Below, piece by piece: positions 20,074 to 32,900 of a stretch of DNA of 64,000 nucleotides. Numbering within the stretch: position 1 is the stretch's first letter; each line of letters begins with the position of its first letter. The position numbers and the translations under genes are program-made. The notes under the pieces are model-generated. The model searched no databases and was not told where the DNA came from. It saw only the letters and a list, made by a program, of their open reading frames with translations. Source of the DNA: Tubulanus polymorphus (lineage: Eukaryota > Animalia > Nemertea); NCBI RefSeq assembly GCF_964204645.1, contig NC_134025.1, positions 7,378,001 through 7,442,000 on the forward strand. Direction: 5' to 3'.

Positions 20074-28122
<8,049 letters not shown>

Positions 28123-28401
28123 TGTGCTGAAAAAAATATGATCTATGTGAAAATGATAGTTTAGAAAATATATTTCGACCGTCTATCATTAGAAATCAAA
28201 CAGTCTGGCCTACTCGTTGTTGAGATTTTCTTGTCCCCAAATGCTTGTCATAGGCAATCAATACTTGATATTCATACATAGTAATTAAGTTAATTGAGAA
28301 AAAGATACAGATTATGACATACCTTCTGGTCTTGTGGTTATTTACTTATGTGTATTGTAGATTGTCAAAAACCAATTAGCAGACAGCTGGTAGTTGATAT
28401 A

Positions 28402-28415: not shown

Positions 28416-29013
28416 GCTAATTGGTTCCGAAGCGCCCTCTAACTATTCAACTATTTTCATTATCAAAAATAATTCAGCATTATCAATCCCTATTTTATGA
28501 AATCTTACAAAAAACACATTTTTCGTTCTCATCAGAAATTATATTTTTTTAGAAAAATCTTATAACAAAAATTATGCGCTGAATGAAGGTCACAGAGTAG
28601 AAGGTCGTCTTGCATAGTTTCGCGGAGACTCAGTTTCCGCAAATCAAATAAATTAAAAGTCTCAAAAATTGTTTATCTTCTTGTTTGTAAGTAACATTCA
28701 GCCCTTTATACTAAAAACATGATTGTATAATTTTGTAGTTTGCGCTGAGTTTTCTATATGGAAGTCTAAATTTGGCCATATTTGCTTCGAAACATTAACT
28801 TTGTTGAGATCAAAATAGTCTCGGGGAAAACCGTCGGTGTTCGGTTCAGTTGTATAATAATGTTTTTAAATACAGTTGTATAATTTGTTAGTGTAAATTC
28901 ACGATTACTCATTTGTCACTGATCTATCACAAGGTTTGAGCTAGCCTAATTATGGAACTAATACTATTTAATGAATGAATTCGTTTGCAATATGTAATGT
29001 ATTTATTTGCAGG

Positions 29014-29190
29014 ATGGAATCACAGGTAGGAGCTGTGAAACACTATTGGCGATTATTCAGACGAAAATTAGGATTTGCGTCAATCCTCTTCCCAACGTTT
29101 GTTGTTTGGGCAATCTACGCTGACTACACTCGAACGCAGAGGTTCAAAGCTTTGAAATCGCAAGAAAATATTGCTGAACCAAGCGTTTAA
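29014..29190 (+). CDS. Uncharacterised 58-aa single-pass membrane microprotein (upstream cistron of the NDUFB1 transcript)
   Basis: MESQVGAVKHYWRLFRRKLGFASILFPTFVVWAIYADYTRTQRFKALKSQENIAEPSV*. Basic amphipathic N-terminus and one hydrophobic segment. Lies wholly within an exon with acceptor TTTGCAG (29012) and donor GTAAGC (29203). Confidence 0.65.
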   Translation: MESQVGAVKHYWRLFRRKLGFASILFPTFVVWAIYADYTRTQRFKALKSQENIAEPSV

Positions 29191-29377
29191 AACTTAAAGA
29201 CAGTAAGCGATCGTATAAAGCTGTTATTATTATTATTAGGAGTCATATATCTCTGGTTCTTCTGTCATTCCCTCTGCATTTATTTTCCCTAAAAAAATAA
29301 AGCAAGAGGGCTTTTTATAGCCAAGATAATCCTTTTCTTAATCCTGTTTTATACAAATCCTCTTCTCATAGGTCAAA

Positions 29378-29560
29378 ATGGTTCGTAGTGCGATGCTCAC
29401 AAACTGGAAGCAGAAATATCTGCCGATGTTGATCCCATTTGTGTTCGCTTATTTTGGACATTTGCACGAAAAGAGAAGCGATGAAAGCATGAGTCTGTTT
29501 CGAAATAAAAGTCAGTTATACGGCGGAAAAGTCCTACCACCTGGAGAGAAAGCTTGGTGA
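29378..29560 (+). CDS. NDUFB1: NADH dehydrogenase 1 beta subcomplex subunit 1 (MNLL)
   Basis: 60 aa with one TM segment, followed by KRSDESMSLFRNKSQLYG..LPPGEKAW, matching the NDUFB1 motif RKSDERLTAFRNKSML...LQPSEEVTW. Strong CAAAATGG start context. Confidence 0.85.
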   Translation: MVRSAMLTNWKQKYLPMLIPFVFAYFGHLHEKRSDESMSLFRNKSQLYGGKVLPPGEKAW

Positions 29561-29959
29561 ACTAGAATAGTAGAATGCTGGTCCGTAGCGTAAAGTAATT
29601 TCCGATGAAGCTGTGTGTTATGATTAGTTTTATTGTTTAAATATTCATGAAAAAAATACAATGTAAAACGTTTTGAAAACTAAACTTTAAATGTGTAGTT
29701 ATTAAATATTTCTCAACTCTTGGTTAGTTTTGATGTCGGTAGCTTGTTAAGGAGCTCATATTCAACACAAAATGATATTTCTTACAATAAATAATGTAAA
29801 AACATAAATCAGGGAATTCAAGTTTGGTCACCTCGAGAATCTTGTTGCATCTGTAGGAACTAACCAGTTTTAAGGAAGCAAGTCCATTTAGTTCATCCTG
29901 GAATTTTCTGGAGGGAGCAAGGAATTCACACATCAATACTTAATAATTGGCGCTATTTT

Positions 29960-32900
29960 TCACCTCATACCAAGTATCTGATGACTTTTCGTTGTCGCTT
30001 CTTTTTCTACACTCCTCAATTCTAAAGCTCGTGATTTAGCTCTCTGTAAACGGGCTTTCAATTCTGAGTGTTTATAGTTCGAGTATGCCTGCCGGCACAA
30101 TTTTCCGTTCTCGTCAAAGTGCACTTTCTTTTTCGGCGACATTTCATCTTTACGAGCTTTTGTCATACAAGACGGTGGTAATATTTCATAGAATGGGGAA
30201 CCTGAGAAATAAAAGACACAAATTACATGAGAAAGTGATTACAATTCAGTCTACTCGAATGCTCTGCAAGTCTCACAATGACTTCCGACACCTTTTCACG
30301 AAATCACTGATGGCACGCATTTATTTATGACTTTTGCGTTAGGATCATGGCTTTGGCTCTGAAGGGTTATGCTATTGGGTTCAAACCCCATATAAAATCA
30401 ACCTGTCATTGATGAACAGCATTGTGCTTTGAATTTAAAAATTAAACAATATGCCATTTATTTTAGTAAATGCTTTATTTATGAAAAGACAAAAAGTATA
30501 AATATAAGTTCAAATATTTAGGTAATACCACCATGATTACATGGTTCTGATTTGCAGGCAAAAATATGTAAAAATTTAAACTTCGTAGTTTGAGGTAGAC
30601 GGAGTTCATTGAAACATCACAATCAGGTTGATTCATAGTTCATAGACAACTGACTGTCCAATTTAGTTGAAGAATAAAACCCACAATTGAAGAATAATTG
30701 AGAGTTAAAGAGGCCAACTCAAATGCGATGACCCATTTTCAAAAATGAAATTTTTGAAAATGGCTCAGAATTTGAGTTGAAAGATCAAAATCCTCTTACA
30801 GTTCTTCTTTGAGGGTTTCATCTGTCAAGCGTAGAGGTATCTAATCGGGGATCACAAACACAACCTGCTGGGCTGTGTACTTAGCAACATAGAGTGCACA
30901 CCACTCACTCAGAGGAAAAATATAAGTAAAATTTTGGCGGTATCAAGTCGTAATCATTCGTGCAGTCCAATATAAAATGAAAATAATAGCTAAAGAAACT
31001 TTACAGTTTAGCGCAAAATGCATATTATATGCACTGGAGGAATGATCAGTGATATATTACACTTATATTCATCACAGTAACTGATGAGCAATTAGGACGG
31101 AGAATGAAGAGTATCAATTATTGATGTTTATATTGCCGAGTGGTGTTCGAGGAAGTGGAGTCACGGCTGCAAATTTTTTATCTCTTGCAGCCCCTGCTGG
31201 CGGTTGATATTCCTTCGGGTTCGATATTTTTCTCTGCATCAAAGGCGTACGAAAATTCGGCGAACCACTGTAAACATGTTTACCGGTGGCAGTTTTTCCA
31301 GTACCTGTTGAAGTTGGTTGTATCGTAGGCGATCGTTTTGGTTGAGTGTATTTAGAAGTGACATCCTTAGACAATATACGTTGTTCACGTCTAAAATTTA
31401 AAAATCAGTTTCAACTGTTAATTGCTTTCCAGACAAAAGTGACCATGTGATTCAATTGAAAAAAATAACAACAATACCAAGTTGTAAAACTAATAGACGA
31501 TTTTGACATTTCGACTCAATGTACCAGTAATGAGCCATTAAAGTGCATTTGAGTCAAAATCCTCTTATATTTTTTTTCCTATTCAGCTATTCAGGGGCTT
31601 TCAAAACTCTGATATCTGATACAGTAATGATTAGACTGTGTATCACTTTGGACCACCCATAGACAACTTACTTCTTAACTTTTTCTTCGAATGTCTTTTC
31701 TCTCAATTCCAATTGTTTCAGTCGAGCTGGAAATGAATTGACAATACATTGTATAATTGATATTTCGTTAAAATTGTAATTCAAAATTTGTATTGTGAAT
31801 ATCAAGCACTTACATTCGATATCCTGTTCTTTCGTAAGCAGTTGTCTTTCCTTGCGTTTTATATCCTCTTCTTTTCGAGCCAACCGATCCTCCCACTCTT
31901 TCAACTTAGTTGACTTTTCATCGACGCTGTCACCCGACCCAGACAATTTACTGTGTGGTTTTTCCGGTGAAGAGAGGAGCAGAACTTGAGGATGTTTTGC
32001 TAGAATCTCAATGGACGGACGACGGTCTTCCTGCCAGGGAAAGAATTTCAAATAAAGTAAGATACCTCACATTTACTAATGCATTCACTGATATCCATCG
32101 GTTTATTAAATACTCACTTCAACTTGAAGCATTCTCACAATAACTTCTTGAAGTTCATCTGGGTAAATGGCAGGAATTCGAGCAAATTTCCCTGCTCGAA
32201 TTTTGATAGCTAAATCTTTCTGATTATTGGCGGTAAATGGTGGGTGAAGCGCGCAAAGCTCGTAGATCAGACACCCCAGTGACCAAATATCTGATTTTTC
32301 ATTGTACTGTGAATAATTCATTTGTTCCTAAAACAAACAAATAAGTGCTGATTAGTAGATGCATTCTTAATTCAACATCAGTCATATCAAAGACGATATT
32401 CCTTACTGGAGACATGTAATAGGGAGTTCCGACAAACGTTTTGGCGAAACTTGTCTCATGGTGTAAAACTCGAGCGAGGCCAAAATCGCCTAATTTTACA
32501 TTTTTATTCGCGTCGAGGAATACATTTGCCGGTTTCAGATCTCTGTGTAGAACAGCTTGACCGCCAGTACGACGATGACAGATCTTTAACGCCGACACAA
32601 CCTGAGCAAAAATCTTCCACACAAATGCCGCCTCCAATCTTTGCCTATTAAAACAGAACATGAATTTCAGGGGTTGCTTTTACACTGCCTACATATCAAT
32701 TGCTGTACATAAACCACGGAACACATACTTCTCTTTTTTTGCTCTCTGAATCAGGCTGGAAAGATCCCCTCCTTGACAATATTCCATGATTATATACAAA
32801 GACGTGCGTACGCGATCGATAATGCGATCGTAGTAGCGCACAATGTTTTGATGCTTCAGCTCACGAAGCAAATTCACCTCAGAAACCAACAGCTGTTTTT

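What the first reader, a model, noticed from the sequence alone, without database searches (positions are those of the whole stretch)
28620..29560. Bicistronic mRNA: unknown 58-aa membrane microprotein upstream of NDUFB1, with leaky-scanning design
Seen: a non-coding exon ending at 28686 (GTAAGT donor), exon 29013-29202 holding a complete 58-codon ORF, and an exon from 29372 holding complete NDUFB1. After splicing, the first stop is only 18 nt from the NDUFB1 ATG. The upstream ATG has a weak context (TTG-ATG, pyrimidine at -3) while NDUFB1 has the optimal CAAA-ATG-G. There is no other ATG in any frame in the ~190 nt between them. The peptide (basic amphipathic N-terminus, one TM, IYADYTRTQRFK) looks like a mitochondrial inner-membrane microprotein, but I cannot assign a family. 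Known: bicistronic pairs of small mitochondrial proteins exist in animals (Drosophila sloth1/sloth2 = SMIM4/C12orf73). Inference: an unnamed complex I partner or assembly factor co-translated with NDUFB1.
Basis: partly seen in the sequence, partly recalled or inferred. Interest (0 to 1): 0.8.

Follow-up and report, generated by a model that had tools for sequence, protein, structure and literature searches.

The report
Known micropeptide–NDUFB1 two-gene mRNA
One spliced message carries a conserved 58-residue peptide gene just ahead of the respiratory complex I subunit NDUFB1, likely read by leaky scanning; the pairing is real but was already described in flies and ticks in 2008, and what the peptide does is still unknown.

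Summary
Spliced contigs from two studies show the junction that joins the 58-codon ORF (29014-29190) to NDUFB1 (29378-29560), and one 528-nt contig carries all three exons. It is not an unknown system: the peptide is the orthologue of the conserved uORF peptide that Hayden & Bosco (2008) described ahead of Drosophila CG18624/NDUFB1 and traced to ticks, and that FlyBase annotates as the dicistronic gene CG45089 (54 aa, 21 nt spacer). This scan also reported the pair on two other genomes. Added here: 47 homologues including a snail protein; NDUFB1 downstream in 11 of 26 related loci; purifying selection (median dN/dS 0.21); T at -3 of the first ATG in 26 of 26 loci; and 1 methionine in 2007 core residues of the family. 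These point to leaky scanning, not readthrough. The 'complex I partner' idea is unproven: two fly complex I structures contain no fly-specific subunit. Weak sequence hints make the peptide a possible ancient paralogue of NDUFB1, but a profile-profile test did not confirm that. Verdict: new member of a known dicistronic locus, function still open.

The parts
28583..28686 (+). Non-coding first exon (5' end not mapped; 28583 is only where the longest contig begins)
   Evidence: Contigs of X3 (from 28583) and X4 (from 28605) end at 28686 and join 29013
28687..29012 (+). Intron 1, 326 nt, GT..AG
   Evidence: Joint 28686>29013 in X3 and X4
29013..29202 (+). Exon 2, holding the whole upstream ORF
   Evidence: Covered end to end by spliced contigs of X3 and X5, in two overlapping contigs by X4
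29014..29190 (+). ORF1: 58-aa peptide, orthologue of Drosophila CG45089 (the CG18624 conserved-peptide uORF); basic N-terminus, one hydrophobic stretch at residues 19-35, conserved P-x6-I-Y-x-D-x3-T-x3-K motif
   Evidence: 47 homologues; invariant P27 I34 D37 T41 K45; same motif in the published fly and tick peptides; hydropathy; single-helix model, pLDDT 78
29203..29371 (+). Intron 2, 169 nt, GT..AG; its removal leaves an 18-nt spacer between ORF1 stop and NDUFB1 start
   Evidence: Joint 29202>29372 in X3, X4, X5; spacer computed
29372..29611 (+). Exon 3 (3' end not mapped; contigs reach 29605 and 29611)
29378..29560 (+). ORF2: NDUFB1 (complex I MNLL subunit), 60 aa
   Evidence: PF08040 E 2.5e-8; PDB NDUFB1 chains E 1.6e-5 and up

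Best explanation
This is the orthologue of the known CG45089-NDUFB1 dicistronic locus: one spliced mRNA carries both ORFs, ribosomes likely start at the sub-optimal first ATG part of the time and otherwise scan on to NDUFB1, and the first product is likely a single-pass mitochondrial inner-membrane peptide that would help assemble, rather than stay in, the respiratory chain. Shown: the spliced exon chain, the identity of NDUFB1, homology to the published arthropod peptide, conserved linkage, purifying selection, AUG avoidance. Inferred: translation of ORF1 in this organism (about 0.9), leaky scanning as the route to NDUFB1 (about 0.8), mitochondrial inner-membrane location (about 0.65), a role in complex I membrane-arm assembly in particular (about 0.3).
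For: Transcript. Orthology: over the 21-residue core the window peptide matches a published tick uORF peptide at 17 positions and the fly peptide at 10, by my count from the supplement text, and all five invariant family residues are present in the fly peptide; FlyBase lists CG45089 (54 aa) and CG18624 as dicistronic with 21 nt between stop and start. Linkage: NDUFB1 lies downstream on the same strand in 11 of 26 related loci, and 24 of 26 have a donor-like AG|GT 4-13 nt after the ORF1 stop, as here. Coding: dN/dS below 1 in 69 of 69 unsaturated pairs out of 120, median 0.21; the 2008 paper gives Ka/Ks 0.11. Leaky scanning: T at -3 of the ORF1 ATG in 26 of 26 loci, A at -3 of the NDUFB1 ATG after predicted splicing in 10 of 10 scored and in L026; 1 Met in 2007 core residues of 49 homologues against 21 in 681 for 11 NDUFB1 sequences; out-of-frame ATGs 8 seen against 20 expected in 18 sequences; in L026 the predicted spliced ORF1 overlaps the NDUFB1 start in another frame. 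These are the marks used for leaky scanning in sloth1/sloth2 and algal bicistrons. Membrane/mitochondrial: hydrophobic residues 19-35 after a +4 N-terminus; the named look-alikes in the Atlas are small mitochondrial inner-membrane proteins.
Against: No ribosome, proteomic or localisation data were seen; contigs are not single molecules. Most of the 26 loci look like one clade of close relatives, so the counts overstate independence; the A at -3 of NDUFB1 partly follows from the splice consensus. 15 of 26 loci show no NDUFB1 in the DNA held (194-3000 nt downstream), which short contigs can explain but which I could not resolve. ORF1's ATG here has a favourable G at +4. 5 of the 16 cleanly bounded ORF1 sequences' ATG counts are non-zero in total (4 sequences). 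In flies a splice variant gives monocistronic NDUFB1, so coupling is not obligatory there. Both fly complex I structures assign all 29 accessory subunits to mammalian counterparts, so the peptide is not a stable part of mature fly complex I. Short spacers also suit reinitiation.
Confidence: 0.6

Rival explanations
1. ORF1 is a cis-acting conserved-peptide uORF: its nascent peptide stalls or slows the ribosome to tune NDUFB1 output, and the released peptide has no job of its own.
For: Published as a CPuORF; invariant residues cluster in the C-terminal half of the core; always upstream of NDUFB1 where both are seen.
Against: The conserved motif ends 3 to about 25 residues before a stop whose position and tail vary freely, whereas stalling peptides usually fix their distance to the stop (own knowledge); it has a full membrane-length hydrophobic helix; the start looks built to be bypassed.
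Confidence: 0.15
2. The peptide works in mitochondria but on another complex (III, IV or V) or in import; the shared mRNA only co-regulates two small mitochondrial proteins.
For: Weak matches to complex III subunit QCR8/UcrQ are as strong as those to NDUFB1: 5 of 37 members, best E 0.021; best PDB profile hit E 0.39. Fly complex I has no extra subunit. Many dicistronic partners are unrelated in function.
Against: All these matches are below family cut-offs and cover only the C-terminal half of UcrQ; no tool gave a significant match to any named subunit.
Confidence: 0.2
3. The two in-frame ORFs are made as one fusion by stop-codon readthrough, or NDUFB1 is made by reinitiation after ORF1.
For: In this window the ORFs share a frame with no second stop in the 18-nt spacer; the fly spacer of 21 nt is also a multiple of three; spacers are short.
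Against: Predicted spacers in related loci are 5, 7, 11 (five loci), 13, 14 and 4-or-12 nt, mostly out of frame, and L026 overlaps out of frame; the stop is TAA; reinitiation would not need Met to be avoided along the whole ORF.
Confidence: 0.05

Closest known systems
Drosophila CG45089-CG18624 (ND-MNLL/NDUFB1) dicistronic locus; CPuORF of Hayden & Bosco 2008 (PMC2276209); FlyBase list in PMC4528330 File S1
   Same: Homologous upstream peptide (54 vs 58 aa), same order, same downstream gene, short spacer (21 vs 18 nt), purifying selection.
   Different: Another animal; the fly has a monocistronic NDUFB1 splice variant, while no skipping joint was seen here in 6 runs. The paper passages I read do not test the translation mechanism or the peptide's function.
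Drosophila sloth1/sloth2 (SMIM4/C12orf73), PMC9681215
   Same: Two small single-helix proteins on one mRNA, weak first and strong second start context, few nucleotides between them; leaky scanning shown there by reporters.
   Different: Different protein families (UPF0640 clusters score only 0.81-0.86 in the Atlas); sloth peptides act on complex III and are experimentally characterised.
NDUFB1/MNLL family (PF08040)
   Same: Similar length, one helix near the N-terminus, colinear weak matches (P and Y-x-D in register; residues 16-45 onto profile 6-35).
   Different: Below the family cut-off (15 bits at best vs 27); lacks the conserved C-terminal F-x-N/D-K-S-x-L...W part; profile-profile test not significant.

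Membership tests
CG45089-type uORF/NDUFB1 dicistronic locus | Upstream peptide homologous to the published CG18624 uORF peptides | tested here: met
   Compared by eye with the supplement text: 17 of 21 core positions identical to a tick peptide, 10 of 21 to the fly; all five invariant residues present. No E-value was computed against the published sequences.
CG45089-type uORF/NDUFB1 dicistronic locus | Downstream ORF is NDUFB1 | tested here: met
   PF08040 above cut-off; PDB
CG45089-type uORF/NDUFB1 dicistronic locus | Both ORFs on one spliced transcript, non-fused | tested here: met
   Junction 29202>29372 in three runs of two studies; one contig with all three exons. Contigs, not single long reads.
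CG45089-type uORF/NDUFB1 dicistronic locus | Purifying selection on the upstream peptide | tested here: met
   Median dN/dS 0.21 over 69 unsaturated pairs of 120 among 16 sequences; for the window against the other 15, pS 0.59-0.96 vs pN 0.33-0.45
Leaky-scanning bicistron (sloth1/sloth2 type) | Sub-optimal first start, better second start | tested here: met
   T vs A at -3 here and in related loci; G at +4 softens it here
Leaky-scanning bicistron (sloth1/sloth2 type) | AUG depletion ahead of ORF2 | tested here: met
   1 Met in 2007 residues; 8 vs 20 out-of-frame ATGs; sequences are related, so not independent
Leaky-scanning bicistron (sloth1/sloth2 type) | ORF2 output falls when the ORF1 context is strengthened | not testable with these tools
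   Needs a reporter assay
NDUFB1 (PF08040) paralogue | Significant sequence or profile similarity to NDUFB1 | tested here: inconclusive
   Weak hints; hhalign probability 0.3%, 21 of 60 shuffles score as high, against a shallow 11-sequence NDUFB1 alignment
Complex I accessory subunit | Present in purified mature complex I | not testable with these tools
   Not testable for this organism; in fly structures no fly-specific subunit is reported (passages)
QCR8/UQCRQ (PF02939) | Match above the family cut-off over the whole domain | tested here: not met
   Best 15.2 bits vs cut-off 25.2, C-terminal half only

The most novel reading that the evidence does not exclude
The upstream peptide is an ancient tandem duplicate of NDUFB1 that kept the membrane helix, lost the C-terminal arm, and acts as a placeholder or chaperone at the NDUFB1 site of the complex I membrane arm during assembly; leaky scanning on the shared mRNA has fixed the ratio of placeholder to subunit across protostome animals.
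Probability: 0.15. Interest if true: 0.65.

Novelty: new member of a known kind. Interest (0 to 1): 0.27.

Why it matters
The locus itself is known, so discovery value is low. What is useful: it shows that a peptide first seen as an arthropod uORF belongs to a wider animal family (a snail homologue, a nematode-labelled cluster), keeps its place ahead of NDUFB1, and carries a strong family-wide signature of leaky scanning. That makes CG45089 a well-motivated, still uncharacterised candidate for a mitochondrial assembly factor that can be tested directly in flies.

Tried and rejected
Single-sequence word searches found nothing for ORF1 or for this NDUFB1; that reflects the word filter, since HMMER and a profile found many relatives. 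P0005, 1 of the 13 hits, is a repeat protein without the motif and was dropped. DUF6614 (E 0.0024, below cut-off, 1 of 37 members) and ZDHHC20 (E 0.014) are treated as chance helix matches. Fold searches were uninformative for a single helix: no Foldseek match, only generic coiled coils at Z under 6. Complex prediction of ORF1 with NDUFB1 gave no answer (score 0.00, alignments not used, controls not run). No run was on record as RNA in the listing; X3, X4 and X5 are taken as transcript-derived from their spliced joints. No genome is held for the window or the loci, so the organism and the linkage in the snail were not established. NDUFC1, missing from fly complex I, was considered as an identity; it did not appear among the 4 PDB sequences matched at E up to 10. 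Readthrough fusion was rejected as a conserved mechanism by frame changes. Literature searches: 'CG45089' 0 papers; 'NDUFB1'+'bicistronic' 7 papers and 'NDUFB1'+'uORF'+'microprotein'+'mitochondrial' 1 paper, none on this locus by title and abstract start; one search likewise. These cover open-access main texts only, not supplements.

Full report
Observation. The window holds a 58-codon ORF at 29014-29190 and a 60-codon ORF at 29378-29560 on the + strand. The second is NDUFB1: PF08040 at E 2.5e-8, above the curated cut-off, and all 13 PDB hits are NDUFB1. Of six public runs that hold the stretch, three show spliced joints: 28686>29013 in X3 and X4 (one sample) and 29202>29372 in X3, X4 and X5 (two studies), both GT..AG. 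One 528-nt contig of X3 runs through all three exons; a contig of X5 at depth 2290 runs from 29013 across the second joint without a break. X1 carries the introns. No joint that skips exon 2 was listed, though contigs drop rare forms and are not single molecules. After splicing the stop is 18 nt from the NDUFB1 ATG, the contexts are ttgATGg and aaaATGg, and the 192 nt between the starts hold no ATG.

What it is. HMMER over the 50%-identity library gave 13 hits, 12 with the motif; a profile gave 47 among 1402 candidates, one named as a Nucella lapillus (snail) hypothetical protein. In 37 aligned sequences P27, I34, D37, T41 and K45 are invariant. No Pfam family is reached. The FlyBase table of polycistronic genes (PMC4528330; supplement rows and main-text passages seen; one supplement file not searchable) lists CG45089, 54 aa, dicistronic only, 21 nt ahead of CG18624, and calls the two unrelated. 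Hayden & Bosco 2008 (PMC2276209; passages and parts of supplement 2 seen) report this uORF with Ka/Ks 0.11 and trace the pair to ticks. Their peptides carry the same motif; by my count the window's 21-residue core matches one tick peptide at 17 positions and the fly at 10. So this is an orthologue of a described locus. Two earlier notes of this scan reached the same view on other genomes; I saw them after finding the papers.

Related loci. A scan with a 12-sequence alignment gave 26 loci from 37 pattern matches. NDUFB1 lies downstream on the same strand in 11 of 26; the other 15 hold 194-3000 nt downstream and show none, and introns of about 2.5 kb in L018 and L019 show that truncation can explain this. 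In 24 of 26 a donor-like site follows the ORF1 stop by 4-13 nt. dN/dS is below 1 in all 69 unsaturated pairs of 120 among 16 sequences, median 0.21, against 0.28 for NDUFB1 (19 of 55 pairs). Most loci resemble each other closely; L004, L017 and L024 are the more distant ones, so the independent lineages are few.

Mechanism of translation. The base at -3 of the ORF1 ATG is T in 26 of 26 loci (uncertain for L004, where an acceptor may abut the ATG), and A at the NDUFB1 ATG in 10 of 10 scored after predicted splicing, the latter partly a by-product of the splice consensus. Methionine is nearly absent from the family core: 1 in 2007 residues of 49 of the 51 proteins held, against 21 in 681 for NDUFB1, where 11 of 11 have at least one. 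Out-of-frame ATGs number 8 against 20 expected in 18 non-redundant sequences, or 5 against 16 without the two whose unspliced tails run into the intron. Predicted spacers are mostly not multiples of three, and in L026 the predicted spliced ORF1 ends beyond the NDUFB1 start in another frame. Readthrough fusion is therefore not the conserved mechanism, and leaky scanning fits best: these are the features reported for sloth1/sloth2 (PMC9681215, passages) and algal bicistrons (PMC11892635, passages), the latter noting that AUG depletion near the stop also fits reinitiation. This step is inferred, not shown.

Function of the peptide. It has a basic N-terminus, one hydrophobic stretch at 19-35 and folds as one helix. 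Its named look-alikes in the Atlas are small mitochondrial inner-membrane proteins, led by NDUFB1 clusters at 0.89-0.90, behind an unnamed nematode-labelled cluster at 0.92-0.94 whose phylum is known for 4 members. Two fly complex I structures assign all 29 accessory subunits to mammalian counterparts and one states that none is unique to the fly (PMC9977279, PMC10036122; passages), so a stable-subunit role is unlikely there. An assembly or regulatory role in the inner membrane is my best guess, at modest odds.

Paralogy lead. The family profile matched only 4 of 177635 PDB sequences at E up to 10: one QCR8 (0.39) and three NDUFB1 (0.87-1.8), the latter in register over the helix. Two of 37 members hit PF08040 (best E 0.02) and five hit UcrQ (best 0.021). 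Against this, hhalign with an 11-sequence NDUFB1 alignment from the loci gave probability 0.3%, and 21 of 60 column shuffles scored as high. The hint is worth a deeper test but is not established.

Verdict. Real, well supported, already described as a locus; new here are a further member, a wider range for the peptide, and a quantified leaky-scanning signature. The organism was not identified, so I cannot say that this window itself extends the pair beyond arthropods. No paper naming CG45089 was found in the library's main texts; supplements of proteomic or ribosome-profiling papers, which I could not search across, may hold data on it.

Noticed in passing
window 27138-28323 and further left, - strand: A spliced gene runs head-to-head with this locus, its first exon within about 300 nt of exon 1 (joints in X3, X4, X5), which suggests a shared bidirectional promoter. 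ARM repeats at 20243-20752; the label ODAD2/ARMC4 is recalled, not from a call.
   Followed up: partly
window 29650-30199 and 31303 onward, - strand: A convergent spliced transcript reaches 29650 (X5), close to the NDUFB1 3' end; candidate + strand poly(A) signals at 29701 and 29786 would overlap it. A kinase exon lies at 32302-32679; NEK2-like is recalled.
   Followed up: no
window 29013: The deepest spliced contig (X5, depth 2290) begins exactly at the exon 2 acceptor, which may mean more than one upstream exon or leader joins there.
   Followed up: no
L026:196-372 joined to 998 onward: ORF1 has lost its stop before the intron and, if spliced as predicted, overlaps the NDUFB1 start out of frame; L002 looks similar but its NDUFB1 exon is not held.
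   Followed up: partly
window 29223 and 29361: Run X1 differs from the window by small insertions in intron 2 (3 and 4 nt) and two substitutions further right, i.e. allelic or assembly variation outside the ORFs.
   Followed up: no
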